Below, piece after piece: positions 7,236 through 49,538 of a stretch of 64,000 nucleotides of DNA. The stretch is taken from the NCBI GenBank assembly GCA_038063515.1, contig JBBTUY010000001.1:10972-74971 (forward strand), given 5' to 3'. Source of the DNA: Patescibacteria group bacterium (GTDB lineage: Bacteria; Patescibacteriota; Minisyncoccia; Phycocordibacterales; UBA9973). Below the pieces are notes generated by a model, which was not told the DNA's origin, did no database searches, and saw nothing but the letters and a program-made list of their open reading frames with translations. The translations under genes were made by a program, and so were the position numbers. Position 1 is the first letter of the stretch, and each line of letters opens with the position of its first letter.

Positions 7236-7256
7236 TGTCAAAGACCGTCTTTGACA
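7236..7256. repeat. Terminal hairpin TGTCAAAGAC-C-GTCTTTGACA
   Basis: Perfect 10-bp stem read directly; overlaps the transposase stop codon. Confidence 0.8.
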
Positions 7257-10238: not shown

Positions 10239-10275
10239 TTTTGCCAAAAATTCAATTTGGCGTTACAATATAAAT

Positions 10276-10668: not shown

Positions 10669-10672
10669 ATAT

Positions 10673-11227: not shown

Positions 11228-11229
11228 TT

Positions 11230-11682: not shown

Positions 11683-11776
11683 CTTTTTATTTAGCGTGTA
11701 GTATAATATATAGGTATTATTTATTATTAAAATAGGTCGCTTATTATTATAAATTTATGTTTGTTAAAAATTAGTT

Positions 11777-12190
11777 ATGAAAAATAAATTAATGGTTTTA
11801 TCAGGTTTAGTTATGATGTCTGCTCCTGTCGTTGCTTTAGCACAGGTGCAAATACAGAGCGGTGGGGCATGTAGTGGTCTTATTGGTACTGGTACAACAC
11901 AAGGAGGAGTAAAGGAGATCATATGTCGTGTTGGAGATATATTAAGTACAATAGTCCCAGTATTGATGGTGCTTGCTATCATCTACTTCGTATGGGGAGT
12001 TATTAACTACGTTATCGCTAGTGATGAAGAAGCTAAAAAAGCAGGAAGAGATAGAATTATCTACGGAGTTATAGGTCTTGCTGTTATCGTCGGTGTATGG
12101 GGACTTGTAAAAATCGTTCAAGATACATTTGGTTTTGATAACACTAATACAAACCCTATAGTTCTACCAACTATCGATATCTATAACTAA
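11777..12190 (+). CDS. T4SS pilin-like protein, paralog
   Basis: Signal peptide ending in ALAQ, plus a VIASDEEAKKAGRDRIIYGVIGLAV module. Confidence 0.55.
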   Translation: MKNKLMVLSGLVMMSAPVVALAQVQIQSGGACSGLIGTGTTQGGVKEIICRVGDILSTIVPVLMVLAIIYFVWGVINYVIASDEEAKKAGRDRIIYGVIGLAVIVGVWGLVKIVQDTFGFDNTNTNPIVLPTIDIYN

Positions 12191-12192
12191 GC

Positions 12193-12516
12193 ATGATGAA
12201 TTTGTTTTCTACTAACATAGCCTATGCTGCGACGCCGGAGCTTGATAAGTTTATCAGGAACGTGGATCGACTTATTATAAATCCCATCATTACCTTACTT
12301 TTTGCTATTGCTGTCGTATATTTTCTTTACGGTGTGTTTCAGTTTTTGTGGGCTAGTGCAAGTGAAGAGAAAAAGACAAATGGCAAGTCGCACATGCTCT
12401 GGGGCATCATCGGGATCACGATCATGATGAGCGTCTGGGCTATCCTTGGTATCGTAATGCGTACCATAGGAGTCACAGGTATTAACCCACAGCAGGGAAC
12501 AGTGGAGCTAAGGTAG
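12193..12516 (+). CDS. T4SS pilin-like protein, paralog
   Basis: LWASASEEKKTNGKSHMLWGIIG module. Confidence 0.5.
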   Translation: MMNLFSTNIAYAATPELDKFIRNVDRLIINPIITLLFAIAVVYFLYGVFQFLWASASEEKKTNGKSHMLWGIIGITIMMSVWAILGIVMRTIGVTGINPQQGTVELR

Positions 12517-26148: not shown

Positions 26149-27180
26149 ATGTCTATAACAATATCTTTTAAACCAAAAAAAGTTACTAAAAAAATAACAT
26201 CAGAACTCGCATCTCGCGCTTCTGATGTTATTGTCAATCGTTTCGGATTAACTCTTGACGGTAAAAGAAAAACTCTCGAAGAGATAGGAAAGAAATACAA
26301 CATCACCAGAGAAAGAGTTCGCCAGATTGAAGAAGTAGCAATAGCTTCTATAAAAAAGTCTGGTGCGTACCACACAGAGCAAGCTATTTTCGAAGAGTTG
26401 AAGCAACTTATGCACAAGCTAGGATCAGTCGTAGCGGAGCATGAGCTTCTTCCTTATATTTCTAAAGATAAAATAACTCAGAATCATATTCATTTCTTGC
26501 TTACACTAAGTGATTCTTTTAAAAAGCATCGTGAAGATCAGCATTTTCATTCACGTTTTAGTGTGGATGATGAGATGGCATTACGTGTGCATGAAGCACT
26601 ACGTAAGTTGTATTCGAGTTTAAGTGACGAAGACCTGGTTACAGAAACTGAAATAATAAAAAAGTTTTTTGATCACCTTAAAGAGGTTGCAGAGGAATAC
26701 AGAGATGATGAGATAGTAAAGAGGTGGCTTTCTATGTCTAAGACTATTGCTAAGAATCCGCTTGGTGAGTGGGGTAAAGCTTCTTCTCCAAATATAAAGA
26801 TTCGCGGAGTTAAAGATTACGCTTTTCTTGTCATGAGAAGTCATGGTTCTCCTATGCATTTTCGTGAAGTTGCAGACTCTATATCTAAGACTTTTAGTAA
26901 AAAGATACACTACGCTACATGTCACAATGAATTAATCAAAGATCCACGATTTGTTTTAGTAGGTCGCGGTATATACTCGCTTGCTGAGTGGGGATACAAG
27001 TCTGGTACCGCTCGCGAAGTTATGATAGATATATTAAAAAAAGAAGGACCACTCTCACGAGAAGATATAATTTCCAAAGTTAATAAAGAGAGATACTTTA
27101 AGAAAAATACTATTTTAGTAAACCTTGTAAACTCTAAGTTTTTCAAGAAAAACAAAGAAGGACTCTATATTCTAGCTTAA
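26149..27180 (+). CDS. Putative transcription factor: N-terminal sigma-70 region-4-like HTH, C-terminal HARE-HTH-like domain
   Basis: KRKTLEEIGKKYNITRERVRQIEEVAI (sigma region 4.2 signature); C-terminal GRGIYSLAEWGY (HARE-HTH/RpoE-delta-like). Confidence 0.4.
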   Translation: MSITISFKPKKVTKKITSELASRASDVIVNRFGLTLDGKRKTLEEIGKKYNITRERVRQIEEVAIASIKKSGAYHTEQAIFEELKQLMHKLGSVVAEHELLPYISKDKITQNHIHFLLTLSDSFKKHREDQHFHSRFSVDDEMALRVHEALRKLYSSLSDEDLVTETEIIKKFFDHLKEVAEEYRDDEIVKRWLSMSKTIAKNPLGEWGKASSPNIKIRGVKDYAFLVMRSHGSPMHFREVADSISKTFSKKIHYATCHNELIKDPRFVLVGRGIYSLAEWGYKSGTAREVMIDILKKEGPLSREDIISKVNKERYFKKNTILVNLVNSKFFKKNKEGLYILA

Positions 27181-27250
27181 ATAAAGTTACATTTTCTTTA
27201 TAATGCATTTTTTCATTTCTTTTTTATCGTTTATGTATTATTATTAGTAC

Positions 27251-28651
27251 ATGACTGAGTTTGGAGATAATCTCGAACACATTATAGCAAATTATTGGCA
27301 CTACATTTTAGCTTTAATAGCTATATTTTTTCTTTGGTACTACGATTTGCTTCGTGGAGCTATAGAAGCAGCACTAGCCCTTGCCGGAGTTATTATACTT
27401 GGACGTATGGCTTGGAAGGTATGGGTGCATTATGTTCAGCAGGATTTTATCTCAGGTATCGATTATGTTTTACTTGAGATCATCCCTCCACGAGAAGTTT
27501 TAAGAAATCCTAAAGCAATGGAGCTTTTTTTTAGTAATGCACTCTATCACTGGAGTTTAAAAGGAGGAAAAGAGGAATACTGGCAGGGTGCAGTGTGGTT
27601 TTGGTTTTCTCTTGAGATCGCATCCATTGACGGACAAGTGCATTTTTATGTACGTACACCCACTCGTATACGAGGGCTCATAGAGACACAGATGTACGCT
27701 CAGTATCCTCAAGCACAAGTAAAGGAAGTGGAAGACTATACTATGGCTGTGGATAAAATAAGCCCTGATAGTAAATGGATGGGTTGGGGTTGTGAATTTA
27801 AATTAAAGAAAAATGAAGCATATCCTATTAAAACTTATGTGGATTTCGGTCTTGATAAGGATCCTAAAGAAGAGTATAAGGTTGACCCTATTTCACCTCT
27901 TATAGAGCTTTTTGGTTCACTTAAAAAGGGTGAGCAAATGTGGGTGCAGATAGTCGTAACGCCTTCTAAAAAAGCTTACAAAACTAAAGGGACATTGTTT
28001 GGATCTCATGACTGGGTACAAGAGGCGCAAGATGAAGTTTTAAGATTTCTTGCTCCATACACAAGCCATAAGGAGGTTAAGGAAATAGGTGATTATGGAA
28101 TAGGTAGGAGTCGTATTGAAACTCGTGTGCCGCCATTTTTAGATAGAGCAGTAAAAGCCATGGGTGCAAAGACTACAAAGCTTGGTTTCGACACCGGTAT
28201 ACGTGCATATTATGTAGCTCCTAAAGAAATATACGACATGAGTAGTAGGAGAAACATCCGTCTCATCTTCCGTCAGTATGATGCTCCTGATAGTAATGGA
28301 CTTATCCGTACAAATCCTACTCAGGCTGATGCGCTCGGTCGTTTCGGTGTTTTTTCTCTTTCCGCTGAGCAGGTCATGGTATTAGCAGACAGGATGCTCA
28401 ATGAGTACAGAGAAAGACAGTTTTTTCATCCACCACTTCGTCATCAAATTTTAAATAACCATAATATAAAATGGCCTTTTAATATTTTTGTACATCCATT
28501 TTTCTTACCATATCTTCATGGTAGTACTTTTGTTTTAAATACTGAAGAGCTTGCGACACTCTGGCATTTCCCTGGTCAGATACTCAAAGTTCCTACACTC
28601 GAACGTATCGAATCTAAAGAAGCTTCTCCTCCTACTAACTTACCGACTTAA
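27251..28651 (+). CDS. Large membrane-anchored hypothetical protein
   Basis: One or two N-terminal TM helices; no recognisable catalytic motif. Confidence 0.35.
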   Translation: MTEFGDNLEHIIANYWHYILALIAIFFLWYYDLLRGAIEAALALAGVIILGRMAWKVWVHYVQQDFISGIDYVLLEIIPPREVLRNPKAMELFFSNALYHWSLKGGKEEYWQGAVWFWFSLEIASIDGQVHFYVRTPTRIRGLIETQMYAQYPQAQVKEVEDYTMAVDKISPDSKWMGWGCEFKLKKNEAYPIKTYVDFGLDKDPKEEYKVDPISPLIELFGSLKKGEQMWVQIVVTPSKKAYKTKGTLFGSHDWVQEAQDEVLRFLAPYTSHKEVKEIGDYGIGRSRIETRVPPFLDRAVKAMGAKTTKLGFDTGIRAYYVAPKEIYDMSSRRNIRLIFRQYDAPDSNGLIRTNPTQADALGRFGVFSLSAEQVMVLADRMLNEYRERQFFHPPLRHQILNNHNIKWPFNIFVHPFFLPYLHGSTFVLNTEELATLWHFPGQILKVPTLERIESKEASPPTNLPT

Positions 28652-28654
28652 TAT

Positions 28655-29587
28655 ATGGAAAATGTCCCTTTCAACCCTAAAATACTAGGTGATAGTTCTA
28701 AGTTCCACAAGCATAGATATGCTATTTTTTCTTTTTTAATAATAGGTTTTATTTTTTTTGTATATTATTTATTTTTTTCTACACCTAGAAGTTTTCCTGT
28801 AAATTATAAATTACAAATAGAGCAAGGAGAGACTTTGCATGCTATATCAAATGAGCTTAAGAGAAATAATGTTATCCGGTCAAGTATTGCATTCGAGGCT
28901 TTCGTTATATTTTATAATGCAGAAAATAGTATAGTAGCTGGAGATTACTTGTTTGAAAAGAATATGCCTGTATGGCAAGTCGCAAGACGTATTTCTAAAA
29001 ATGTACGATTTGTTCCATCTGTTATAGTGGCTATTCCAGAAGGTTACGATATATATCAGATAGCCGATACGTATGCTAGCAAGCTATCTCTTTTCAGTAA
29101 AGAGAAATTTTTAGCCTATGCAAAAACCAAAGAAGGATATTTTTTCCCTGATACATATTACTTTTTAAACAATGACACAGAAAAGAATGTGATAGATTCT
29201 ATGAGTAAAAATTTTGAGAAGAAGCTTGCGCCCATTCGTCCAAATATACTAGCATCTGGTAAAAGTGAAAAAGATATCATAACCATGGCCTCTATTATAG
29301 AACGTGAATCAAGAGGATATTTCGATCGTAAGGAAATATCTGGAATTTTATGGAAGAGAATTTCTATAGGTATGAGACTGCAAGTAGACGCTGCACCGGT
29401 AACTTACCAAGCAAAAGGCTTACCAACAAATCCAATTTCTAATCCAGGATTAGAGGCAATAGATGCTGCCATTAATCCCAAAATTTCGAATTATTTGTAT
29501 TATTTACATGACAAAGATGGAAATATACATTATGCAAAAACTTTCGGTGAGCATAAGGCTAACATAGCGAAATATTTGACGAAGTAG
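28655..29587 (+). CDS. mltG: Endolytic murein transglycosylase MltG (YceG-like)
   Basis: N-terminal TM and the YceG signature ...MASIIERE... Confidence 0.75.
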   Translation: MENVPFNPKILGDSSKFHKHRYAIFSFLIIGFIFFVYYLFFSTPRSFPVNYKLQIEQGETLHAISNELKRNNVIRSSIAFEAFVIFYNAENSIVAGDYLFEKNMPVWQVARRISKNVRFVPSVIVAIPEGYDIYQIADTYASKLSLFSKEKFLAYAKTKEGYFFPDTYYFLNNDTEKNVIDSMSKNFEKKLAPIRPNILASGKSEKDIITMASIIERESRGYFDRKEISGILWKRISIGMRLQVDAAPVTYQAKGLPTNPISNPGLEAIDAAINPKISNYLYYLHDKDGNIHYAKTFGEHKANIAKYLTK

Positions 29588-29612
29588 TTTATTCTGTTAG
29601 ATTAAAGAATAA

Positions 29613-30851
29613 ATGATGAAGTCAGATAAAAAGAAAATAACTAGAAATAAAAAAACTCGAGAAAAGAAAGTTGTTTTTGTGGGTCTCTCTGGGGGCGTAG
29701 ATAGTGCTGTTTCGGCTAGCCTATTACTTCAGTCTGGGTATGAAGTAGTGGGAGTTTTCATTAAAACTTGGCACCCTGATTTCTTAGAATGCAACGAAGA
29801 AGAAGAGAGGCGTGACGCTATGCGTGTGGCAGCACACCTAGACATCCCATTCCTTACTTTTGATTTTGAAGATGTTTATAAAAAGGAAGTTGCGGACTAT
29901 ATGATAAGAGAGTATAGGCTAGGTCGTACTCCAAATCCCGATGTGATGTGTAACAAAGAAGTAAAATTTGGAGCATTTTTACAGAAGGCACTTTCTATGG
30001 GGGCAGACTATGTGGCGACGGGCCACTACAGTCAGATCAGCGAAGTTGGAAATGACTTTTTATCAGGTCCTCGGTTCTCTGGGTCCCTATCCCGGCCAGA
30101 CCATGCTAAAAAGTATTTCCAACTTTGCCAGAGCTCGGATCCTTCAAAAGACCAAAGTTATTTTCTCTGGACTTTAAAACAAGAACAGATATCTAAAATA
30201 ATTTTTCCTATAGGCAGTTTTAAGAAAATTGAAGTGAGGAAATTAGCAAAGAAATTCAACCTACCTGTTGCCGAAAAGCATGACAGTCAAGGCATATGTT
30301 TTTTGGGCGATATAGATTTAAAAGAATTTTTAAAACATTATATTAAAGAAAAGAGAGGTAAAGTTTTAAATGATACAGGTGAGGAGATAGGGTATCACGA
30401 TGGCGTGGTTTTCCATACACTCGGAGAACGTCATGGATTTACTATTACTAAAAAGAGCACAAATGATGGACGATACTATGTAGTTAGTAAAGATGTAAAG
30501 AAAAATACTTTGATTGTTAGCCAAGAAAAAAATATGCTTCTTTCTCACGGCTCGCACTTCATCTTGAATATGGATGACCGAGCTTTGGTAGCGAATGCCG
30601 AAGAAAGAACATATTTTAATCTTGGCTTAGAAAATGTAAATTGGATTTCTCAAATTCCAGAAGAAAATAAAATCTATAAAGCCCAGATACGATATCATGG
30701 GGAATTTTTACCATGCAAAATAAAATGTTTAACACCGAGTGTTGAACAAAACACAGAAATTATTTTTGAGAAGCCTGTTTTAGTTGCACCTGGGCAGTCT
30801 ATAGTTCTCTACGACAAAGACGTTTGCCTGGGTGGCGGAGTTGTGAGATAA
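29613..30851 (+). CDS. mnmA: tRNA-specific 2-thiouridylase MnmA
   Basis: PP-loop GLSGGVDSAV and catalytic-Cys regions MCNKEVKFGAFL / DQSYFL. Confidence 0.85.
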   Translation: MMKSDKKKITRNKKTREKKVVFVGLSGGVDSAVSASLLLQSGYEVVGVFIKTWHPDFLECNEEEERRDAMRVAAHLDIPFLTFDFEDVYKKEVADYMIREYRLGRTPNPDVMCNKEVKFGAFLQKALSMGADYVATGHYSQISEVGNDFLSGPRFSGSLSRPDHAKKYFQLCQSSDPSKDQSYFLWTLKQEQISKIIFPIGSFKKIEVRKLAKKFNLPVAEKHDSQGICFLGDIDLKEFLKHYIKEKRGKVLNDTGEEIGYHDGVVFHTLGERHGFTITKKSTNDGRYYVVSKDVKKNTLIVSQEKNMLLSHGSHFILNMDDRALVANAEERTYFNLGLENVNWISQIPEENKIYKAQIRYHGEFLPCKIKCLTPSVEQNTEIIFEKPVLVAPGQSIVLYDKDVCLGGGVVR

Positions 30852-40402: not shown

Positions 40403-42094
40403 ATGAAAAGTGAAACTAAAAACTGCCAGAATTGTAAAAAAGATTTCGTAATAGAAACTGAGGATTTTGACTTTTATGAAAAGATAAAAGTGCCTCCACC
40501 GACGTGGTGCCCAGAGTGTAGGCAAGTACGTCGCTATGCTTGGAGAAATGAACGTACTCTGTACAGGAGAAACTGTGATCTCTGTAAGAAAAATATGGTG
40601 ACAATATATTCACCGAACAAACCATTTGTAGTGTATTGCAATGAATGCTGGTGGGGTGATGGCTGGGATCCAGCTTCGTATGCCAAAGATTTTGACTTTT
40701 CAAGGCCATTTTTCGAGCAATTTTCTGAGCTCCAGCACGAAGTCCCCCGTATGGCACTTTTAAATAAAAATAGTACTAATTCAGAGTATACTAACCATGC
40801 CGCTAATAATAAAAATTGTTATCTATCATTTACACTTATTGATGATGAAAATGTTATGTATAGTGCGTGGGTTGTAAAATCTCGTGATTGTGTAGATTGT
40901 AGTTTTATATATGAGAAAGGGGAGCGGCTTTATGAAGTAATTGATTCCCGTACTTGTTATCAGTGTCAGTACGGACTTTTTTTTAAAGACTGTTCGTCAG
41001 TGTATTACTCTTATGATTGCCATAGTTGCAATGAATGCTTTTTATCTTCAAATTTACGTAATAAAAGTTATGTTTTTAAAAATGTTCAATACTCGAGGGA
41101 AGAATATTTAGAAAAAATAAAAGAATATAATTTATCTTCTTTTGAAGTACGACAGAAATTAAATGAAGAATTTAAAAATCTATTGGAAAATATTGCTGTC
41201 CACAAGTATGTCGTCAATGAAAGAAACGTAAATTCTACAGGGTCCTTAATTTATGACTGTAAGGATGTAAATAAGGCATTTGAAGTTTATAAAGGAGAAA
41301 ATGGTAAATATATTTATGGTGCAATAAATATAAAAGACTCTATGGATTTGTACCACATAGATGGAGCTGAGTTGTGCTATGAGGTTCATGCTGGTATTAG
41401 AAATACTAATTCCCAGTTTATTACTCTCTGCTATGATAATACTTATATCATTTATAGTGATACCTGTCATAACAGTCAAAACCTTTTCGGCTGTGTTAGC
41501 GTCAAGAAAGGTGAATATGTGATTTTAAATAAGAAATACAGTAAAGAGGATTATCTTATTTTAAGAGAAAAGATTATTGAACATATGAAAAAGGGAGGGG
41601 AATACGGAGAATTTTTTCCTCCCTCCATTGCTCCTGTCACCTACAATGAGACTCAGGGGAATTTATATGAGCCTATGACCAAAGAGGAGGTCTTGGCTAA
41701 GGGATGGAACTGGGAAGAAAATGTACCAGGGACATTTGGTAAAGAAACTATTCCTCACGACCAAATACCAGACAAAATAGAAGATGTCCCCGATTCATAT
41801 TTGAAAGAGATTTTTATTTGTACCGAGTGCTCGAAGAATTACAATATTAATCAAAATGAACTTCTTTTTTATAAAAAAGAAAAAATCCCACTTCCTAGGA
41901 AATGCCCAAATTGTAGATACAAAAGGAGATTTGACTTAAGACCACTTCGCAAGTTGTGGCATCGTATTTGTATGTGCTCGCAAAAGCATAATAATCATGA
42001 AGGTAAATGTGAAGTAGAATTTGAGACCCCATATTCTCCGGATAGAGTTGAAAAAGTGTATTGCGAAAAATGCTACCAGCAAGAAGTCTACTAA
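40403..42094 (+). CDS. Cysteine-rich protein with N- and C-terminal zinc-ribbon modules and internal Cys repeats (hypothetical)
   Basis: About 40 Cys. N-terminal CQNCKKDFVIETEDFDFYEKIKVPPPTWCPECRQVRR and C-terminal CTECSKNYNINQNELLFYKKEKIPLPRKCPNCRYKRR are homologous CxxC...CPxCR ribbons. Confidence 0.5.
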   Translation: MKSETKNCQNCKKDFVIETEDFDFYEKIKVPPPTWCPECRQVRRYAWRNERTLYRRNCDLCKKNMVTIYSPNKPFVVYCNECWWGDGWDPASYAKDFDFSRPFFEQFSELQHEVPRMALLNKNSTNSEYTNHAANNKNCYLSFTLIDDENVMYSAWVVKSRDCVDCSFIYEKGERLYEVIDSRTCYQCQYGLFFKDCSSVYYSYDCHSCNECFLSSNLRNKSYVFKNVQYSREEYLEKIKEYNLSSFEVRQKLNEEFKNLLENIAVHKYVVNERNVNSTGSLIYDCKDVNKAFEVYKGENGKYIYGAINIKDSMDLYHIDGAELCYEVHAGIRNTNSQFITLCYDNTYIIYSDTCHNSQNLFGCVSVKKGEYVILNKKYSKEDYLILREKIIEHMKKGGEYGEFFPPSIAPVTYNETQGNLYEPMTKEEVLAKGWNWEENVPGTFGKETIPHDQIPDKIEDVPDSYLKEIFICTECSKNYNINQNELLFYKKEKIPLPRKCPNCRYKRRFDLRPLRKLWHRICMCSQKHNNHEGKCEVEFETPYSPDRVEKVYCEKCYQQEVY

Positions 42095-42097
42095 AAT

Positions 42098-42676
42098 TTA
42101 TTTACAAAAACTCTCTAAAAGTATTTTCTTAGTTTCTTCGTCTATCATTTGAGTGACGATGATCATGATCTCAGTTGTAAATCCGAGATCTTTTTTAATA
42201 TTTATAAAAAGATGTTCGTACGGGTAGGGGGATATCCATGCAGAATTTTTAAGACATACAAAGCCTGCTTTTTTAAGGAGATAACGCATGCTTTCGCGTT
42301 CACTTTTTCTATCTTCTGGTATGTCGAGAAGTATGATCCTCCAATATCCATCCCACTTGGTGCTCACCATTCCTGTAGTGTTTTCTAGTTTGAGGCTATG
42401 AGTCTTTTTCTTACCTTCTTTTGTGAGTCTCACATAATCATTTTGAGGAGAAGAGATTTGCTCTATAAGCCCAGCTTCCCGGAGTCCTTTGAGGGATCGG
42501 GTAATAGCGTATTTCTGATCAGATAGAGGTTTAGCCTCTATCTTAGAATTATTTAAATTACTTAGGTGTCCAACACCTAAGTTGTGTATTTCAGACAGGG
42601 AAATAGCGGGTTTTTGACCTAAAATCCTTAATATTTTCTTTGAGTATTGATTGTCTTTCTTGTCTTTGCTTGACAT
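42098..42676 (-). CDS. Winged-HTH transcriptional regulator, PaaX-like C-terminal domain (tentative)
   Basis: N-terminal wHTH (KKILRILGQKPAISLSEI), C-terminal WDGYWRIILLDIPEDRKSERESMRYLLKKAGF resembling PaaX_C. Divergent from dnaK. Confidence 0.4.
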   Translation of the reverse strand: MSSKDKKDNQYSKKILRILGQKPAISLSEIHNLGVGHLSNLNNSKIEAKPLSDQKYAITRSLKGLREAGLIEQISSPQNDYVRLTKEGKKKTHSLKLENTTGMVSTKWDGYWRIILLDIPEDRKSERESMRYLLKKAGFVCLKNSAWISPYPYEHLFINIKKDLGFTTEIMIIVTQMIDEETKKILLESFCK

Positions 42677-44701: not shown

Positions 44702-44740
44702 ACTTTAAACTTGTTCAACATTCGGTATTGAACATTACTA

Positions 44741-44770
44741 AAAAGCCCTAAAATAAAGAGGGGCTTTTTA
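44741..44770 (+). terminator. Terminator hairpin AAGCCCT...AGGGCTT plus T5 after dnaK
   Basis: 7-bp stem with a U-run. Confidence 0.65.
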
Positions 44771-44831
44771 GTTCTCTATTTATTGCTGTGTTGTTCATGC
44801 TCTTCATTTGTTGTGATATAATATAAATCAT

Positions 44832-46916
44832 ATGGAATTTCCAGAAATACCTAAAAATAGAGATATAACCTATTTGGGTCTTACCACGTATAGAGATAAA
44901 AATACGCTCTTCGGCATAAAGCGTAAAGACAGGCGTCAGCATGTATACATTCTCGGAAAGTCCGGTACAGGTAAGTCTGTACTCATGTTTAATATGATTA
45001 TACAAAACATCCAGAATGGGGACGGTGTTTGTTTAGTTGACCCTCACGGAGAAAATGTTGAAGGAGTGCTTTCTTCTATTCCTCCACACAGAGTAAAGGA
45101 TGTAGTTTATTTTAACCCTGCAGATACGGAGCACCATATTGGTTTTAATGTTTTAGAATTAGTTGACCCTCAATACAAGCACCTAGTAGCTTCTGGGCTC
45201 ATGGGAATCTTTACAAAGATATGGGCAAATGCATGGTCTGCTCGTATGGAATACATTTTAAACAATACTATTCTTGCACTTCTTGATACTCCAGGTTCTA
45301 CAATGCTCGGCATTCCTCGAATGCTCGTAGACAAAGATTATCGTCAGAAAATAATTTCAAATTTAAAAGACCCTGTCATTAAAGCCTTCTGGGTGCATGA
45401 ATATGAAGCATGGCAAGATAAATTTAGAAATGAAGCAATAGCACCAATACAAAACAAAGTAGGGCAATTCCTCTCTACGTCTATCATAAGAAATGTTGTC
45501 GGGCAGTCAAAGAGCACTATAGACATTTTCAACATGATGAATGAGGGAAAGATTTTCCTTGTGAATGTTTCTAAGGGTCGCATAGGTGAGGACAACTCTG
45601 CGTTGCTTGGAGGTATGATCATTACCAAGATCCAGCTTGCAGCCATGGAGCGTGTGAGAATTCCTGAAGATTCTCGTCGTGACTTTTATTTATATGTCGA
45701 CGAATTTCAAAATTTCGTTACAGATGCTTTTGCTGGGATTTTGTCTGAGGCTCGAAAATACCGACTAAACCTTACAGTGGCTCACCAGTACACAGCTCAG
45801 CTCGTCTCAGACAAGAGTACGGCAGTGCGTGACGCAGTCTTCGGTAACGTAGGAACCATGATCATTTTTCGTGTCGGTTCTGACGACGCAGAATTCTTAG
45901 AAAAAGAATTTGATCCAGAGTTTACTCCACAGGATATTGTAAATCTTCCAAACTATAAAATTTATCTAAAGCTCATGATAGACGGCGTGACTTCTCGCCC
46001 ATTTTCTTCGAGGACGTTACCTCCTATGGTAAAGTCTGGAAATAAAGAAATAGAAGAGGCTGTTATAAAGTCTTCTCGCGAGCTTTATTGTAAATCAAAA
46101 GAAGAAATAGAAAGAGAAATAAATAATTGGAGTGGCATGTCTCTCGGTGGTGAAGGAGGCGAGTCGGTGAATCAGCCTACGGGTAAATTTGAAATTACAT
46201 GCTCTGCATGTAAGAAGCAGACCACTGTGCCATTTAAGCCTGAGGGAGGTAGGCCCGTGTATTGTAAGGAATGTATGGCAAAGATAAAATCAGGGGAGTT
46301 AAAAGTACAAAAAGGAAAAGACGATCAGATTAAATACGATGATTCAAAGTTTTACAAACCTCTTGCTGATCTTGGTATAGAATACAAGCCTAAGGATGAA
46401 GGCGTAAAATCTGTCATTAATTCTGCCATTAATAAGGAATTAAAAGAAGTAAAGGAGGTTCCTAAAGAAATGCAAAAAGAAAAGGTTGTAAAAAAAGAGG
46501 AAGAAAAACCTCCTTACGTGCAAAAACAAGAAGTTTCACCCCTTAAACAAGCCTTAAATAAAATTACAGAGATAATAAAAACAGAGCCTGCTCCTGTAGT
46601 GGAAGAAGTAAAGGAAACAATAAATAAAGAAGAACCTTCTCCGGAACTTTTAAAAGAGAAAATAAAAGTAATTGCAAAAAAGTCTACAATAGTAACCACC
46701 TCAAAAGATAAATCTGCAAGTAAAGAAGATATGAAAAAACTAAGAGACTTCTTGGCTTCTGCCCCTATGAAACAAACTGAAGAAAATACTAAAAAAGAAA
46801 TTCCTGAAATACAAAAAGAGCCAGAAGTAAAGCCAAGTGAAGAGGATGTTGTACCTCTTCCTAAAAAGCCAAAAGAAGTTCCAGAGGAAGTTTTACGAAA
46901 GATCTTAGAAGATTAA
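44832..46916 (+). CDS. Soluble VirD4/TraG-like (type IV coupling protein family) P-loop ATPase with C-terminal zinc ribbon and Lys/Glu-rich disordered tail
   Basis: Walker A ILGKSGTGKS, then CLVDPHGE; Walker B YLYVDEFQNF; ARKYRLNLTVAHQYTAQL (T4CP RKYG...Q..QL-like). CSACKK...RPVYCKECM ribbon. No TM helices. Confidence 0.55.
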   Translation: MEFPEIPKNRDITYLGLTTYRDKNTLFGIKRKDRRQHVYILGKSGTGKSVLMFNMIIQNIQNGDGVCLVDPHGENVEGVLSSIPPHRVKDVVYFNPADTEHHIGFNVLELVDPQYKHLVASGLMGIFTKIWANAWSARMEYILNNTILALLDTPGSTMLGIPRMLVDKDYRQKIISNLKDPVIKAFWVHEYEAWQDKFRNEAIAPIQNKVGQFLSTSIIRNVVGQSKSTIDIFNMMNEGKIFLVNVSKGRIGEDNSALLGGMIITKIQLAAMERVRIPEDSRRDFYLYVDEFQNFVTDAFAGILSEARKYRLNLTVAHQYTAQLVSDKSTAVRDAVFGNVGTMIIFRVGSDDAEFLEKEFDPEFTPQDIVNLPNYKIYLKLMIDGVTSRPFSSRTLPPMVKSGNKEIEEAVIKSSRELYCKSKEEIEREINNWSGMSLGGEGGESVNQPTGKFEITCSACKKQTTVPFKPEGGRPVYCKECMAKIKSGELKVQKGKDDQIKYDDSKFYKPLADLGIEYKPKDEGVKSVINSAINKELKEVKEVPKEMQKEKVVKKEEEKPPYVQKQEVSPLKQALNKITEIIKTEPAPVVEEVKETINKEEPSPELLKEKIKVIAKKSTIVTTSKDKSASKEDMKKLRDFLASAPMKQTEENTKKEIPEIQKEPEVKPSEEDVVPLPKKPKEVPEEVLRKILED

Positions 46917-46931
46917 TTTAATAATTTATAT

Positions 46932-48410
46932 ATGCCAAAGCCAAATAGAATACAAATAATAAAATACGGTCCACCACCACCAGAACTTCCTGTTTTCGGT
47001 AAGGTAAAACCTGAAGACGTATCTTTTATAGGCCGTACGAATTACGTGGCTGCACTTGAAGAAAAGAAATTCGTCTTTGGTATCAAAAGGGTAGATAGGA
47101 GAAGGCACCTATACATCATAGGAAAGTCGGGAGTGGGGAAGACTAAGCTTCTTGAGCTTTTTTTGCGTCAGGATATCACCTATGGACATGGACTTTGTCT
47201 CATAGACCCTCACGGAGACGTGATAGACGCAATGCTTGATTATATTCCTAAGGAACGCATTGATGACGTATGTATTATAGACCCATCTGATATTGATTTC
47301 CCTGCATCATTTAATCCTCTTTCAAACGTGGATCCTATGTTTAAGTTTCAGCTTACGCAAGGACTCATCGAAGTTTTCCAAAAGCAATTCGGAGCCAACT
47401 GGACTCCACGTCTTGAGCACGTTTTTCGTTTCACTTGCCTTGCACTTCTAGACTATCCTCATGCGACGATGCGTGGAATGATATCAATGCTTACAGATAG
47501 AAACTACAGACAGAAAGTTGTGGAATACATCACAGATGACATGGTGAAAAGATTCTTCGCTATTGAATTCGCTGATTGGTCTGAGAAGTTCGATACTGAC
47601 GCTATAATCCCGCTTGTAAACAAACTAGGACAATTTCTCTCTGACCCACTGCTACGTAATATTTTCGGTCAGAAACAAAACAAAATAGACATAAGCAAGC
47701 TCATGAATACTCAAAAGATAATTTTTATTAATTTATCTAAGGGTCGCCTCGGTGAGGAGAATTCTTCATTTCTCGGTTCTATGTTTTTAACAAAGATAAA
47801 ACAAGCAGGCATGGAGCGTGCAGGTATGCCAGAGAGTGCACGTAAAGACTTCTACATATATGTGGATGAGTTTCAGAATGTTGTGACGCAAACATTTGAA
47901 AATATTTTATCTGAGGCCCGTAAGTACGGACTCAATCTCACCATGGCTCACCAGTATGTGGGACAAATAATCACAAAAGTTCACCAAGCTGTACTTGGTA
48001 ACTGCGGTAGTATTATTACTTTTCGTATAGGTGGTGAAGATGCAGTGAAATTAAAACCAGAATTTTCCCCACTTTTTGATGTTAAAGATATGATCAATCT
48101 CGCTGTGACAGAATTTTATATAAAAATGACTATTGATGGTGAATCTTACGATCCATTTTCAGCTGAGACTTTACGAGTTTTACCTCCAACGCACGAGTCT
48201 TATAGAGAAGAAATAATTGCTGCATCTAGAGCAAAATATTCAATACCCAAAGATGATGCACAGAAATTAATTGCTGAAGAAGAAGCCACTATCATCAGAA
48301 GCGTCGAAGAAAAGGCTATGATCGAAGGTAAAGCAAAGAATAAAGACGGTATGGGTAATGAAACAACAGAAACTCCAAAAGTAAAAGAAGAAGTGCAGCC
48401 AATGATATAA
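46932..48410 (+). CDS. Soluble VirD4/TraG-like P-loop ATPase, paralog of the upstream gene
   Basis: IIGKSGVGKT / CLIDPHGD / YIYVDEFQNV / ARKYGLNLTMAHQYVGQI in the same order as in 44832-46916. Confidence 0.55.
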   Translation: MPKPNRIQIIKYGPPPPELPVFGKVKPEDVSFIGRTNYVAALEEKKFVFGIKRVDRRRHLYIIGKSGVGKTKLLELFLRQDITYGHGLCLIDPHGDVIDAMLDYIPKERIDDVCIIDPSDIDFPASFNPLSNVDPMFKFQLTQGLIEVFQKQFGANWTPRLEHVFRFTCLALLDYPHATMRGMISMLTDRNYRQKVVEYITDDMVKRFFAIEFADWSEKFDTDAIIPLVNKLGQFLSDPLLRNIFGQKQNKIDISKLMNTQKIIFINLSKGRLGEENSSFLGSMFLTKIKQAGMERAGMPESARKDFYIYVDEFQNVVTQTFENILSEARKYGLNLTMAHQYVGQIITKVHQAVLGNCGSIITFRIGGEDAVKLKPEFSPLFDVKDMINLAVTEFYIKMTIDGESYDPFSAETLRVLPPTHESYREEIIAASRAKYSIPKDDAQKLIAEEEATIIRSVEEKAMIEGKAKNKDGMGNETTETPKVKEEVQPMI

Positions 48411-48452
48411 ATATTTTCTTGACCAAAGTGTATCTATAAGTATAATACGACT

Positions 48453-49538
48453 ATGAACAAAGACTATTATGAAACATTAGGAGTAAATAAAAATGCCTCA
48501 AAAGAAGAAATCAAGAAGGCTTTTTATAAGCTCGCACACAAATACCACCCTGATAAAAAAGACGGAAATGAAGCTAAATTCAAGCAGGTAAATGAAGCGT
48601 ACCAAGTGCTCTCTGATGACTCTAAACGCTCTAAATATGACCAATACGGCTCTCAATATGAAAACATGGGTCATGCACATGCCGGACACCAAGGTGGCGG
48701 ATTTGAAGGTTTTGACTTTAGTGGCTTTGGACAGGGTGGGGCAGAGTTTGATTTTGGAAACTTAAACGATATCTTTTCTGATTTCTTTGGAGGTGGTATG
48801 GGAGCAAGAAGAGAACAAAGAAGAGGTAGAGACATTTCTACAGAAATACAAGTATCTTTTAGTGATGCTGTTTTTGGCATCACCAGAAAAGTTCTTATCA
48901 CAAAGACTTCTACTTGTGTGACATGTGATGGTAAAGGTGCGAAAATAGGTACTAAAATGGAAACCTGTAAGACATGTAATGGTCAAGGTAAGATACACGA
49001 AACAAAAAGATCATTCCTTGGAAATATTTCTACTACCAAAGTATGTGAGACATGTTTTGGTAGCGGTGAAGTACCAAAAGAAGTCTGTGATAAATGTAAA
49101 GGTAAAGGAGTACTTCGTCGTGAAGAAGAGATAACTATTATGATCCCTGCTGGCATCAGAGACGGTGAGATGATACGTATGACAGGCATGGGCGAAGCAG
49201 TTTCGAGAGGTATGACAGGGGACTTGTATATCAAGATAAACGTTGCTCCACACCCACTATTTAAACGTGACGGTAATGATTTGGTTATGAATCTCGATTT
49301 AAATTTATCTGATGCATTACTCGGTATGAAATATCCTGTAAAAACTTTAGATGGAGACATAGAAGTCACTATTCCTGAAGGAGTAAAGATAAATGAAGTG
49401 CTCCGAGTACGTGGCAAGGGTGTACCAAATAAAAATAAAAGAGGAGACTTGCTTATAAAATTAAATATAAAACTTCCACATAAGATTTCCAAAAAATCTC
49501 GTGAACTTATCGAGCAGCTTAAAAAAGAGGGGATATAA
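48453..49538 (+). CDS. dnaJ: Chaperone DnaJ
   Basis: J-domain with HPD (KYHPDK), G/F-rich linker, four CxxCxGxG repeats. Confidence 0.9.

What the first reader, a model, noticed from the sequence alone, without database searches (positions are those of the whole stretch)
44832..48410. Tandem paralogous soluble VirD4/TraG-like ATPases; the first carries a zinc ribbon and a 200-aa Lys/Glu-rich tail
Both proteins have Walker A immediately followed by a DPHG(E/D) motif, Walker B [YI]YVDEFQN, and the T4CP-like ARKY(R/G)LNLT(V/M)AHQY...Q(L/I) segment. Both lack the N-terminal transmembrane helices of canonical coupling proteins. The first adds a CSAC...RPVYCKEC ribbon and a long disordered KE-rich tail; the second has a short acidic tail. 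Paired soluble T4CP-like ATPases are not part of a described conjugation system. They could be DNA or nucleoprotein translocases of a novel apparatus, possibly working with the pilin array at 9801-12516 or with the membrane protein at 27251-28651.
Basis: partly seen in the sequence, partly recalled or inferred. Interest (0 to 1): 0.65.

Follow-up and report, generated by a model that had tools for sequence, protein, structure and literature searches.

The report
Split T4SS coupling ATPases in Patescibacteria
Two neighbouring genes encode paralogous motor ATPases of the kind that feeds DNA or protein into bacterial conjugation machines; in this ultra-small (Patescibacteria) bacterium they are extremely conserved core chromosomal genes, the membrane-anchoring half is encoded as a separate gene 17 kb away, and their cargo is still unknown.

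Summary
ORFs 44832-46916 (A, 694 aa) and 46932-48410 (B, 492 aa) are intact paralogues (45% identity) with a TrwB/VirD4 coupling-protein fold, intact Walker motifs and no TM helix. A carries a zinc ribbon and a tail.

They are not free-standing "soluble" oddities. In other Patescibacteria, and in Bacillus and actinomycete conjugation operons, the same ATPase is fused to a ~300-400-aa N-terminal module. A profile of that module hits one ORF in the window, the membrane ORF 27251-28651 (E 4.6e-60). That ORF plus A reconstitutes the fused protein. B keeps only a stub of its own module.

The family is near-universal in Patescibacteria, at about two copies per genome (a 2025 survey noted it without dissecting it). 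B is the most conserved protein in its neighbourhood (median 89% identity; DnaK 82%). The dnaK-A-B-dnaJ position is lineage-specific, with separate promoters and a terminator after dnaK.

Most likely they are a domesticated, duplicated, split coupling-protein motor. Whether it still serves the relaxase-less patescibacterial T4SS or has been exapted is unresolved.

It is a new variant of a known kind, of moderate interest.

The parts
44832..46916 (+). Protein A (694 aa). A-clade T4CP-type ATPase (aa 1-~440, with an all-alpha domain), followed by a zinc ribbon and a tail of conserved short motifs.
   Evidence: ORF. Pfam PF10412, PF02534, PF12696 and PF23477. Close homologues are about 70% identical with the same architecture. 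A-clade membership.
44955..44978 (+). A Walker A, GKSGTGKS (aa 42-49). DPHG follows at 45039-45050.
   Evidence: Coordinates. Invariant in alignments A1 and A2. Aligns with the TrwB P-loop.
45681..45791 (+). A Walker B, DFYLYVDEFQN (aa 284-294), and LSEARKYRLNLTVAHQY (aa 304-320).
   Evidence: Coordinates. Invariant columns. Aligns with TrwB '...LFIDE...LTKGRKAGLRVVAGLQS'.
46200..46274 (+). A zinc ribbon, CSAC-x17-CKEC (aa 457-481).
   Evidence: PF23477 E 1.8e-14 and TIGR04272 E 9.8e-15. The domain type was shown to bind zinc in Methanosarcina small proteins (PMC12704099). A ribbon is present in 37 A-clade members and in no B-clade member.
46347..46913 (+). A tail with conserved islands: KFYKPLADLGIEY (46347-46385), SPLKQALNKI (46536-46565), SPELLKEKIK (46638-46667), KDKSASKEDMKKLRDFL (46704-46754) and the C-terminal KEVPEEVLRKILED (46872-46913). 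Variable K/E/P linkers separate them.
   Evidence: Alignment A2. Model helices at aa 570-583, 605-616, 631-642 and 685-693. Coordinates.
46932..48410 (+). Protein B (492 aa). B-clade T4CP-type ATPase. N-terminal stub KPNRIQIIKYGPPPPELP (46938-46991) of a lost N-module, Walker A at 47121-47144, Walker B at 47847-47879, and an acidic tail ending in KEEVQPMI (48384-48407).
   Evidence: ORF. Pfam. Model pLDDT 77, best fold match TrwB at E 2e-12. Median 89% identity across 80 species-level loci. The C-terminal EP[ILM][IV] motif holds across the clade.
27251..28651 (+). Detached N-module (466 aa). Two hydrophobic helices (aa 15-31 and 37-55; nt 27293-27415) are followed by a ~400-aa domain carrying the motifs FSLEIAS, QMYAQYP, YPIKTY and EELATLWHFP. 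It ends in PPTNLPT at the fusion junction.
   Evidence: A profile of the N-extensions of fused homologues hits only this ORF in the window (E 4.6e-60, covering profile positions 6-298 of 298). It is of the A-associated subtype (222.9 vs 131.9 bits). N+A aligns continuously with fused P0281 (40% identity over 843 aa). Homologues carry the precomputed Pfam accession PF26449.
26149..27180 (+). Conserved upstream neighbour of the N-module: a 343-aa protein with sigma-70 region 4 and an RNAP-delta-like HARE-HTH. Whether it belongs to the system is uncertain.
   Evidence: Pfam PF04545 and PF05066. NCBIfam RpoD C-terminal and RNAP delta matches. It lies immediately upstream of, and co-directional with, the N-module or N-fused ATPase in 26 of the 29 diverse loci that contain it.
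44737..44772 (+). Terminator-like hairpin between dnaK and A.
   Evidence: 13-bp stem followed by a U-run; -17.4 kcal/mol, z = -4.2, 0 of 200 shuffles as stable.
44814..44822 (+). Extended -10 (TGATATAAT), 9 nt upstream of A's ATG. This is A's own promoter candidate and implies a near-leaderless mRNA. The A-B spacer is only 15 nt.
   Evidence: Sequence. This is a consensus match only.
40403..42094 (+). Cys-rich 563-aa protein (31 Cys) with treble-clef-like ribbons at both ends. It is a variable-copy family that recurs beside or between A and B in related genomes. Membership in the system is uncertain.
   Evidence: Sub-threshold PF13451, PF23477 and TIGR04272 matches. 161 homologues in the fetched loci. 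It lies between A and B in 40 of 59 loci and flanks fused genes in L081, L082 and L084.

Best explanation
A and B are the two paralogous NTPase subunits of a chromosomally fixed, Patescibacteria-wide descendant of a monoderm conjugative coupling protein (T4CP). The hallmark of that T4CP subfamily is a ~300-400-aa N-module placed in front of a TrwB-like ATPase. In this genome the machine is split into three genes:
- ORF 27251-28651: a TM hairpin plus the N-module, of the A-associated subtype.
- A: ATPase, zinc ribbon and a tail of short conserved motifs.
- B: a second ATPase that has lost its own N-module, keeping only a stub.

Shown here: homology, fold, intact catalytic motifs, the split, the two clades, strong purifying selection, and the ancestry shared with conjugation-operon T4CPs.

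Inferred mechanism:
1. The ATPases form ring (hexameric) assemblies, homo- or hetero-oligomeric.
2. The N-module holds the ring at the membrane.
3. A's ribbon and tail motifs recruit cargo or adaptors.
4. B's acidic tail with its terminal EP[MIL][IV] docks a partner. This is analogous to the F-plasmid TraD tail binding TraM (from my own knowledge, not tested here).
5. NTP hydrolysis drives a macromolecular substrate to or from the relaxase-less patescibacterial T4SS (VirB4, VirB6 and VirB2-like pilins), which is encoded elsewhere.

I hold the identity and architecture at about 0.85. I hold the T4SS-coupled role at about 0.4.
For: Fold and family:
- Pfam T4CP families score above their cut-offs.
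- TrwB is the only solved relative by sequence and the best fold match (E 2e-12, about 420 aligned columns, all-alpha domain at B aa ~135-245), ahead of HerA, Cagbeta and DotL.
- Walker A, Walker B and ARKY...AHQY are invariant in both paralogues.

The split:
- The N-extension profile hits only ORF 27251-28651 (E 4.6e-60), and the match ends at the fusion junction.
- N+A aligns continuously with fused proteins: 590 bits, against 509 for N+B.
- N-B-A or N-ATPase gene clusters occur in L078, L114, L116, L147, L159 and about 15 other loci.

Ancestry:
- Bacillus pBM69 and a B. subtilis plasmid carry 'DUF87' proteins with the N-module (111-113 bits) plus the ATPase (194 bits). Each is the first gene of an operon with a replication-relaxation protein, TcpE, a VirB4-like ATPase and a lytic transglycosylase.
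- The Embleya 812-aa T4CP has TM + N-module (51.8 bits) + ATPase (314 bits), beside PrgI, a replication-relaxation protein and NlpC/P60.

Core status:
- At least 8,000 homologues each, and 8,468 clusters at 50% identity with E <= 1e-30.
- T4CP homologues occur in 2,918 of 3,035 genomes, about two per genome (PMC12102498).
- B has a median 89% identity, against 82% for DnaK and 72% for RpsI.

Other:
- A T4SS is plausibly present in this organism: six VirB2-like pilin genes at 9801-12516.
- There is precedent for a TM-less T4CP anchored by a separate membrane protein: pIP501 TraJ with TraI (PMC12857230).
Against: - There is no virB4, virB6 or relaxase within contig positions 4.4-84 kb.
- Recurrent neighbours in 80 diverse loci are housekeeping genes (secDF, the sigma-r4/HARE-HTH gene, topA, dprA, murG, ftsW, ftsQ-like, murJ, mnmA). 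None are T4SS genes.
- The literature reports only 148 of 5,713 homologues near virB4. It also reports that the T4CP homologue of Southlakia epibionticum was non-essential while the T4SS genes were essential (PMC12102498; PMC10633639). Two paralogues could mask essentiality.
- Oligomeric state, the N-A and A-B contacts, and the cargo are all untested.
- Model A has low confidence (pLDDT 57).
- The N-module has no structural or functional annotation.
- The clade analysis used UPGMA on identities, not a rooted phylogeny.
Confidence: 0.5

Rival explanations
1. Exapted, T4SS-independent housekeeping translocase. The membrane-tethered ring ATPase acts on the cell's own or incoming nucleic acid (chromosome handling at division, or pulling DNA in during natural transformation) and does not use a T4SS channel.
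For: - The context is housekeeping everywhere: the secDF, sigma-r4/HARE-HTH, N-ATPase block beside topA, dprA and the murG/ftsW/ftsQ/murJ genes, and the dnaK/dnaJ block here.
- B is more conserved than DnaK.
- Only 148 of 5,713 homologues lie near virB4, and the survey's authors themselves raise exaptation (PMC12102498).
- T4CPs belong to the FtsK-HerA superfamily of DNA pumps (fold hits).
- A zinc ribbon and a conserved DNA-binding-type neighbour (HARE-HTH) are present.
Against: - No known T4CP works without a T4SS channel.
- A TM hairpin plus a cytoplasmic module is not itself a translocon.
- An ftsK gene is annotated in Saccharibacteria TM7x, so there is no obvious FtsK gap to fill (that annotation is unverified).
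- Synteny with housekeeping genes in streamlined genomes may simply be inherited.
- The 96% versus 80% prevalence gap can be explained by MAG incompleteness combined with two paralogues: 1 - 0.2^2 = 0.96 (my calculation from the numbers).
Confidence: 0.3
2. Chaperone-linked machine. A and B act with DnaK, DnaJ and GrpE (for example as an unfoldase or translocase for proteins), as their position inside the dnaK-dnaJ block might suggest.
For: - The order dnaK-A-...-B-dnaJ is conserved in the window's relatives: dnaK directly precedes A in 43 of 45 loci, and B directly precedes dnaJ in 71 of 74.
- L124 has the order DnaJ-N-smTM-B.
Against: - A strong terminator-like hairpin follows dnaK.
- A and dnaJ each have their own promoter-like site.
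- In the 80 more diverse loci, dnaK or dnaJ is nearby only in the window-like subset. The ancestral position is next to the N-module and the sigma-r4/HARE-HTH gene.
Confidence: 0.04
3. A HerA-type helicase or anti-phage defence ATPase (HerA-NurA, HerA-DUF4297, MADS or Dnd-like) rather than a coupling protein.
For: - DUF87 (HerA central domain) scores just above its cut-off.
- HerA structures appear among the fold hits from rank 31.
- There are weak PADLOC matches to mad8, HerA and DndH.
Against: - TrwB outranks HerA in both sequence and fold searches.
- The all-alpha domain and TraG-D_C are present.
- No NurA, nuclease or other defence partner occurs in any of the roughly 160 loci.
- The PADLOC hits are superfamily-level only.
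- The gene is core and near-universal, unlike patchy defence islands.
Confidence: 0.03
4. Decaying remnants of an integrated conjugative element, meaning truncated, non-functional T4CP genes.
For: - Relatives in Bacillus and actinomycetes are longer and sit in conjugation operons.
- A and B lack the N-module and TM segments.
- B carries a stub of a lost module.
Against: - Both ORFs are intact, with all catalytic motifs.
- B has a median 89% identity and A 83% across 80 species-level genomes, above DnaK.
- Thousands of homologues share the same architecture.
- The missing module is retained as a conserved separate gene, with 2,948 homologues at E <= 0.001 among the scored candidates.
- No integrase or relaxase is nearby.
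Confidence: 0.02

Closest known systems
N-module-bearing coupling proteins of monoderm conjugation operons: the 'DUF87 domain-containing protein' WP_003349917.1 of Bacillus methanolicus pBM69, WP_121549396.1 of a B. subtilis 24.7-kb plasmid, and the Embleya sp. T4CP WP_331738717.1
   Same: The same two-part architecture: the N-module (111-113 bits in Bacillus, 51.8 bits in Embleya, including the ELA-L-H-P motif) followed by the same ATPase core (194-314 bits). An N-terminal TM segment is present in Embleya.
   Different: - Those genes sit in conjugation operons next to a replication-relaxation (relaxase-type) gene, TcpE or PrgI, a VirB4-like ATPase and a cell-wall hydrolase.
- They are single-copy and fused, and only 25-29% identical to B.
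- The window's genes are chromosomal, duplicated (A and B), split from the N-module, unlinked to any relaxase or virB4, and A has gained a zinc ribbon and a motif-bearing tail.
TrwB (R388) and the VirD4/TraG/TraD family of type IV coupling proteins
   Same: The RecA-like nucleotide-binding domain with an inserted all-alpha domain, Walker A and B, and the GRK...LQS-type motif. It is the best fold match (E 2e-12, TM 0.55-0.62) and the only PDB relative by sequence.
   Different: - About 14% identity.
- NCBIfam T4CP equivalogs score far below their cut-offs (for example 54 bits against 366).
- Canonical T4CPs have two N-terminal TM helices directly preceding the ATPase. Here A and B have no TM helix, and a ~400-aa module lies between the anchor and the ATPase.
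- No relaxase or T4SS neighbourhood.
pIP501 TraJ (a T4CP) with the small membrane protein TraI
   Same: A coupling ATPase proposed to be held at the membrane by a separately encoded membrane protein (PMC12857230). This is a precedent for an anchor supplied in trans.
   Different: - TraI is described as a small protein with two predicted TM domains. The anchor here carries a large conserved cytoplasmic module that is fused to the ATPase in most relatives.
- TraJ and TraI lie within a plasmid tra operon.
- I did not test sequence homology to TraI or TraJ.
HerA and FtsK ring translocases (FtsK-HerA superfamily)
   Same: P-loop ring-ATPase fold. HerA structures appear among the fold hits (E 2e-10), and DUF87 gives a marginal match.
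   Different: - Ranked below TrwB.
- No detected HerA- or FtsK-specific accessory features: no NurA partner, and FtsK_SpoIIIE scores only E 0.21.
- The T4CP-type all-alpha domain is present.

Membership tests
Type IV coupling protein (VirD4/TraG/TrwB family) | FtsK-HerA-superfamily P-loop NTPase with conserved Walker A and Walker B | tested here: met
   GKSG[TV]GK[ST] and DFY[LI]YVDEFQN are invariant in A, B and their homologues. They align with the TrwB P-loop and Walker B.
Type IV coupling protein (VirD4/TraG/TrwB family) | All-alpha domain inserted in the nucleotide-binding domain, with overall TrwB-like fold | tested here: met
   Model B (pLDDT 77) has a helical insertion at aa ~135-245 between core strands. 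TrwB is the top Foldseek hit at E 2e-12 over about 420 columns. Pfam TrwB_AAD_bind spans aa 31-350 in A and 56-365 in B.
Type IV coupling protein (VirD4/TraG/TrwB family) | N-terminal transmembrane anchor on the same polypeptide | tested here: not met
   Neither A nor B has a TM-grade segment. For A the anchor is supplied in trans by ORF 27251-28651, which has two hydrophobic helices. B has none.
Type IV coupling protein (VirD4/TraG/TrwB family) | Encoded with a relaxase and/or T4SS (virB4) genes | tested here: not met
   No virB4, virB6 or relaxase occurs in the 64-kb window or in contig positions 4.4-84 kb; only a VirB2-like pilin array is present. Diverse loci show housekeeping neighbours only. 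The feature is met in the Bacillus and Embleya relatives.
Type IV coupling protein (VirD4/TraG/TrwB family) | Score above curated family thresholds | tested here: inconclusive
   Pfam PF10412, PF02534 and PF12696 are above their gathering scores (40.8, 30.4 and 26.1 bits for A). All NCBIfam T4CP equivalogs and subfamilies are far below their cut-offs (at most 54 bits against 250-650).
Type IV coupling protein (VirD4/TraG/TrwB family) | Hexameric ring that binds DNA or relaxosome and hydrolyses NTP | not testable with these tools
   This needs biochemistry or multimer modelling.
N-module T4CP subfamily (N-module PF26449 + ATPase; CPR, Bacillus and actinomycete members) | The ~300-aa N-module (motifs SFE-V, GQ-YAQYP, YPIK-Y/F, ELA-L-H-P) immediately N-terminal to the ATPase | tested here: met
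   It is met in split form. ORF 27251-28651 covers the whole N-module profile (E 4.6e-60) and ends at the junction. N+A aligns colinearly with fused members. B retains only the last ~20 residues.
HerA helicase (with NurA or a defence partner) | HerA-like core as best match plus a conserved nuclease or effector partner gene | tested here: not met
   HerA ranks below TrwB. No NurA or nuclease partner occurs in the window or in about 160 related loci. PADLOC matches are superfamily-level only.
FtsK/SpoIIIE DNA translocase | FtsK_SpoIIIE motor domain, multi-TM N-terminus and gamma domain | tested here: not met
   PF01580 gives E 0.21 over the P-loop only. There are no TM helices and no FtsK entry among the top fold hits.

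The most novel reading that the evidence does not exclude
The A/B/N-module machine is the cytoplasmic motor and receptor of the essential, relaxase-less patescibacterial T4SS, and it runs in the import direction. It would pull host-derived nucleic acid (RNA or DNA) through the VirB2-like pilus into the epibiont. A's zinc ribbon and tail motifs, and perhaps the co-located multi-copy Cys-rich zinc-ribbon proteins, would serve as cargo-handling adaptors. This would make a domesticated conjugation coupling protein part of the feeding apparatus of a whole bacterial radiation. My evidence does not exclude it. A 2026 preprint reports a cultivated member feeding on host RNA and shows tubular structures that may be T4SS pili at the host interface (10.64898/2026.06.21.733656).
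Probability: 0.12. Interest if true: 0.9.

Novelty: new variant of a known kind. Interest (0 to 1): 0.5.

Why it matters
Patescibacteria (CPR) are a very large, mostly uncultured radiation of ultra-small epibionts. Their T4SS is the first shown to be essential for its bearer, yet it has no recognised coupling protein or relaxase in its gene cluster, and its cargo is unknown (PMC10633639, PMC12857230).

The genes examined here are the missing-in-cis coupling-protein homologues. They are near-universal, duplicated and more conserved than DnaK.

Three results give concrete handles for experiments:
- They belong to a specific monoderm T4CP subfamily defined by an uncharacterised N-module.
- In this lineage the protein is split into an anchor/module gene and two ATPase genes.
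- The two paralogues carry different conserved terminal peptides.

These point to specific tests: double knock-outs of the paralogues, N-module/ATPase and tail-peptide interaction mapping, and cargo capture.

The results also correct the annotation picture. The "hypothetical" ORF 27251-28651 and its PF26449 relatives are the front half of a T4CP.

If the machine proves independent of the T4SS, it would be a rare case of a conjugation ATPase exapted to a core cellular role.

Tried and rejected
Searches that gave nothing or were unavailable:
- The N-module profile against PDB sequences gave only chance-level hits (E >= 0.07).
- NCBIfam gave nothing for the N-module.
- No paper mentions PF26449.
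- The Cys-rich protein has no significant PDB, Pfam, NCBIfam or PADLOC match.
- The look-up of the S1-domain ORF found no record.

Ideas tested and set aside:
- Defence-system idea: only superfamily-level PADLOC hits.
- FtsK-replacement idea: ftsK is annotated in TM7x, so this was not pursued.
- Chaperone coupling: rejected as the main explanation after finding the dnaK terminator, the separate promoters and the lack of dnaK/dnaJ synteny in diverse loci.
- The small HEPN-like TM protein found between the N-module and B in 8 diverse loci plus L078 has no copy in the window.

Method limits:
- My first A/B classification by HMM score was ambiguous.
- Coarse UPGMA thresholds did not separate the clades. 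Finer thresholds did, but this is not a true phylogeny.
- The genome contigs and metagenome scans return only the 80 best loci each, so the synteny statistics are samples, not censuses.
- The paper's Table S3 is only partly stored, so I did not tabulate it.

Full report
**Observation.** The public gene calls on the source contig, a 191-kb Hainich groundwater metagenome contig, are identical. A and B are paralogues (45% identity over 439 aa, E 3e-136). All quoted motifs are present, and they are invariant across homologues of both proteins. Neither protein has a TM-grade hydrophobic stretch: the maximum 19-residue Kyte-Doolittle means are 1.13 and 1.06, against 2.3-2.6 for membrane controls. 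The same holds for 239 of 240 close homologues. A's CSAC-x17-CKEC ribbon matches PF23477 and TIGR04272 (E ~1e-14). That domain type has been shown to bind zinc in Methanosarcina small proteins (PMC12704099).

Three details of the description need correction:
- DPHG lies 20 residues after Walker A, not immediately after it.
- A's K/E-rich tail contains five conserved islands and a near-invariant C-terminal peptide, KEVPE[DE]VLRKILE. These coincide with predicted short helices.
- B's acidic tail ends in a peptide...EP[MIL][IV], that is conserved across very distant relatives.

**What the ATPases are.** Pfam TrwB_AAD_bind, T4SS-DNA_transf and TraG-D_C all score above their gathering cut-offs for both proteins. 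DUF87/HerA is marginal. NCBIfam's curated T4CP models match only far below their cut-offs. TrwB is the only solved relative detectable by sequence. An AlphaFold model of B (pLDDT 77, pTM 0.78) shows a RecA-like core with a helical insertion at aa ~135-245. Its best Foldseek matches are TrwB chains (E 2e-12, about 420 columns), followed by HerA, Cagbeta and DotL. So the fold is that of a coupling protein, including the all-alpha domain. The model of A is poor overall (pLDDT 57), but it supports the ribbon and the tail helices.

**Distribution and conservation.** Each protein has at least 8,000 database homologues. The top hits are about 70% (A) and 84-92% (B) identical, and all come from Patescibacteria. 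An exhaustive profile search of 1.84 billion cluster representatives found 8,468 clusters at E <= 1e-30. A 2025 survey counted 5,713 VirD4-type T4CP homologues in 2,918 of 3,035 Patescibacteria genomes. Only 148 lie near virB4, and VirB4 itself is in 2,417 genomes. The authors remarked that exaptation 'cannot be ruled out' (PMC12102498). Its Table S3 lists, for example, T4CP hits at genes 83 and 85 of one genome. The family is therefore known to exist but has not been dissected.

In 80 species-level loci of close relatives, B is the most conserved protein of the neighbourhood:

| Protein | Median identity |
|---|---|
| B | 89% |
| A | 83% |
| DnaK | 82% |
| DnaJ | 73% |
| CysS | 72% |
| RpsI | 72% |

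This level of conservation excludes the pseudogene reading.

**Context in the window.** The surroundings are core chromosome. The order is rpsM-rpsK-rpsD-rpoA-rplQ-rplM-rpsI-grpE, a 563-aa Cys-rich ORF, a divergent PaaX-like gene, dnaK, A, B, dnaJ, and then a membrane protein, an arginase-family gene, cysS and others. No virB4, virB6 or relaxase is present in the window or in contig positions 4.4-84 kb. The only T4SS-related feature is an array of six PF18895 (VirB2-like) pilin genes at 9801-12516.

In close relatives, dnaK directly precedes A in 43 of 45 loci and B directly precedes dnaJ in 71 of 74. A precedes B in 59 of 61 loci, but they are directly adjacent in only 19. In the other 40, 1-4 paralogues of the Cys-rich ORF lie between them.

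Transcriptionally the pair looks autonomous:
- A 13-bp hairpin with a U-run follows dnaK (-17.4 kcal/mol, z = -4.2).
- An exact extended -10 (TGATATAAT) ends 9 nt before A's ATG.
- A and B are 15 nt apart.
- dnaJ has its own TTGACC-16-TATAAT site ending 6 nt before its ATG.

These are consensus matches, not mapped transcripts.

**The key finding: a detached N-module.** Among the best 150 cluster representatives, many homologues start the ATPase at residue ~230-500, behind a long N-terminal extension. Of the 59 extensions used to build the profile, about 25 begin with a strongly hydrophobic segment. These extensions have no family in the local Pfam copy. An HMM built from 59 of them hits exactly one ORF in the window, 27251-28651 (466 aa), at E 4.6e-60. 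The match covers profile positions 6-298 of 298 and ends at ...ELATLWHFPGQILKVPTLERIESKEASP, which is the point where the ATPase begins in fused proteins. It has two hydrophobic helices (aa 15-31 and 37-55) followed by a ~400-aa domain. Its 2,948 scored homologues (top 120 at 65-75% identity) are unnamed and carry the precomputed accession PF26449. That accession is absent from the local Pfam library and from the literature searched. The module has no detectable relative among solved structures or NCBIfam families.

**Which ATPase does it belong to?** Clustering of 201 ATPase cores separates two clades:
- **A-clade** (about 57% identity to A): long C-terminal tails, zinc ribbons in 37 members, N-fused in 33-45 members and N-adjacent in 14.
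- **B-clade**: short tails ending in EP[ILM][IV], either N-fused or free.

All free-standing N-module ORFs, including the window's, match the A-associated subtype much better (222.9 vs 131.9 bits). The concatenation N+A aligns colinearly with fused A-clade proteins (40% identity over 843 aa with P0281, 590 bits), with the junction bridged. N+B scores 509 bits. B's N-terminus (KPNRIQIIKYGPPPPELP) corresponds to the last ~20 residues of an N-module, so it is a stub of a module that B has lost. The clustering is UPGMA on identities, not a phylogeny, so clade boundaries are provisional.

**Synteny across diverse lineages.** In 80 metagenomic loci recovered with fused proteins as query (33-60% identity), the arrangements are:
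1. A fused N-ATPase gene, sometimes two in tandem.
2. An N-module ORF directly upstream of, and often overlapping, an ATPase ORF.
3. N-(small TM protein)-B-A clusters (L114, L116, L147, L159; also L078).
4. The dnaK-A-(Cys-rich)n-B-dnaJ arrangement, found only in window-like relatives.

The most frequent neighbour family (29 of 80 loci) has sigma-70 region 4 plus an RNAP-delta-like HARE-HTH. It lies immediately upstream of, and co-directional with, the N-module or N-fused ATPase in 26 of those 29 loci. The window's ORF 26149-27180, directly upstream of the N-module ORF, has the same two domains. Other recurrent neighbours are secD/secF, topA, dprA, murG, ftsW, an ftsQ-like gene, murJ and mnmA. 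None are T4SS genes. The window thus keeps the ancestral sigma-r4/HARE-HTH, N-module, yceG, mnmA position at 26149-30851, while its ATPases have moved 17 kb away into the chaperone block. The dnaK/dnaJ association is therefore lineage-specific and is weak evidence for function.

**Relatives outside Patescibacteria.** B matches 346 plasmid records at no more than 37% identity and 39 phage records, including Bacillus phage G gp156.
- In Bacillus methanolicus pBM69 and a B. subtilis 24.7-kb plasmid, the 833- and 886-aa 'DUF87 domain-containing protein' contains the N-module (111-113 bits) followed by the ATPase (194 bits). It is the first gene of a Gram-positive conjugation operon. It is followed by a replication-relaxation protein, conjugal transfer proteins, a TcpE-family protein, an ~850-aa ATP-binding protein and a lytic transglycosylase/C40 peptidase.
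- In an Embleya plasmid, an 812-aa T4CP has a TM segment, the N-module (51.8 bits) and the ATPase (314 bits). Its neighbours are PrgI, an ATP-binding protein, a replication-relaxation protein and NlpC/P60.

So [N-module + TrwB-like ATPase] is a genuine coupling-protein subfamily of monoderm conjugation systems. This agrees with the published nesting of patescibacterial VirB4 within the monoderm MPF-FATA class. The profile E-values in these small searches refer to tiny databases. The bit scores are the meaningful figures.

**Mechanism.**
- *Shown:* fold, motifs, the split, the two clades, the ancestry and the purifying selection.
- *Inferred:* the ATPases assemble into rings, as TrwB does. The N-module tethers the ring to the membrane through its hydrophobic hairpin, as an anchor supplied in trans; pIP501 TraJ with TraI is the precedent (PMC12857230). 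A's zinc ribbon and tail motifs recruit cargo or adaptors. B's acidic tail with a hydrophobic C-terminus docks a partner; the TraD-TraM analogy comes from my own knowledge. The motor serves the relaxase-less patescibacterial T4SS.

Against the last step stand three points: the absence of T4SS genes from every neighbourhood examined, the 148-of-5,713 figure, and the reported non-essentiality of the homologue in Southlakia while the T4SS is essential. Two caveats soften those points. Paralogue redundancy could mask essentiality. And the 96% versus 80% prevalence gap is what MAG incompleteness predicts for a two-copy versus a one-copy gene (1 - 0.2^2 = 0.96).

The main rival, a T4SS-independent housekeeping translocase, fits the synteny and the extreme conservation. 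It lacks any known precedent for a T4CP working without a channel. I rate the identity and architecture at about 0.85, the T4SS-coupled role at about 0.4 and the exapted role at about 0.3.

The other readings are poorly supported:
- Chaperone-linked function.
- HerA or defence function.
- Relic of a mobile element.

**Novelty and verdict.** The proteins are already in databases, annotated as T4SS DNA-binding-domain or CxxC-x17-CxxC proteins, and the family has been counted in a survey. The following were not found in the literature I could search:
- the split architecture;
- the assignment of the 'hypothetical' ORF 27251-28651 (PF26449) as the front half of the coupling protein;
- the A and B clades with distinct terminal peptides;
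- the homology to relaxase-adjacent T4CPs of Bacillus and actinomycetes;
- the conserved sigma-r4/HARE-HTH and Cys-rich neighbours.

This is a new variant of a known kind. Interest is moderate (0.5), and would be higher if the motor proves to be the missing engine of the essential patescibacterial T4SS.

Noticed in passing
window 40403-42094 (+); paralogues in most of L001-L080 and in L081, L082, L084, L114, L116 and others: A 563-aa Cys-rich protein (31 Cys). It has a conserved N-terminal ribbon (CqnCk-dF-ie-Df-FYeKikVp-Pt-Cp-CR), a similar C-terminal ribbon, and a tail ...RPEIVYCEKCYQQEVY that weakly resembles A's ribbon (PF13451, PF23477 and TIGR04272, all sub-threshold). The family is multi-copy (161 copies in the fetched loci, about 40% identity between paralogues). 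Copies lie between A and B in 40 of 59 related loci. No family or structure match was found, and the function is unknown. It could be an adaptor or cargo of the ATPases.
   Followed up: partly
window 26149-27180 (+): A 343-aa hybrid protein with sigma-70 region 4 at the N-terminus and an RNAP-delta-like HARE-HTH at aa 221-281. It lies immediately upstream of the N-module gene here and in 26 of the 29 diverse loci that contain it, often preceded by secD-secF. It may be a patescibacterial RNAP accessory factor or a DNA-binding partner of the system.
   Followed up: partly
window 9801-12516 (+): An array of six consecutive small genes that all match PF18895 (T4SS_pilin, VirB2-like). An ABC-type solute-binding protein gene (8494-9789) lies immediately upstream. 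No virB4 or virB6 occurs within contig positions 4.4-84 kb, so the pilins are detached from any T4SS core.
   Followed up: partly
window 44814-44834 and 48419-48455: The promoter-like -10 elements of A (TGATATAAT) and dnaJ (TTGACC-16-TATAAT) end 9 and 6 nt before the respective ATG codons, with no Shine-Dalgarno sequence between. This suggests leaderless or near-leaderless mRNAs.
   Followed up: no
window 42098-42676 (-): A PaaX_M-domain (Cas2-like fold) HTH protein is divergently transcribed from dnaK. It is conserved in that position in 35 related loci, which makes it a candidate regulator of the dnaK locus. I did not search for hrcA or a CIRCE element.
   Followed up: no
L078 5879-6385; L124 5910-6623; L114, L116, L147, L159, L112, L115: A ~170-240-aa protein with an N-terminal TM segment and a C-terminal domain carrying an Rx4H motif (AHKLRN-x-HE, HEPN-like). 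It sits between the N-module gene and the B-type ATPase in 8 diverse loci and in L078. It is absent from the window.
   Followed up: partly
L059 15189-17936: One close relative carries a third, N-fused paralogue (915 aa) a few kb downstream of its dnaK-A-...-B-dnaJ block. Some genomes therefore have three family members, which is consistent with three T4CP hits per genome in the published Table S3.
   Followed up: no
L164 (Sulfitobacter mediterraneus plasmid NZ_CP081110.1) 8989-10176: The closest non-CPR relative of B (37% identity, E 3e-82) is a solitary 395-aa ATPase without an N-module or tail. A recombinase gene lies upstream and transposase genes lie downstream, on a non-mobilizable alphaproteobacterial plasmid. 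It may have been acquired horizontally.
   Followed up: no
phage records JN638751.1 / NC_023719.1 (Bacillus phage G gp156) 91999-93177: The giant Bacillus phage G and several other Bacillus phages encode homologues of the ATPase core (up to 28% identity, E 4e-37).
   Followed up: no
window 7238-7873 (-): An IS200/IS605-type Y1 transposase (PF01797 in the public gene call) lies about 2 kb upstream of the pilin array. It is the only mobile-element gene seen in the window.
   Followed up: no
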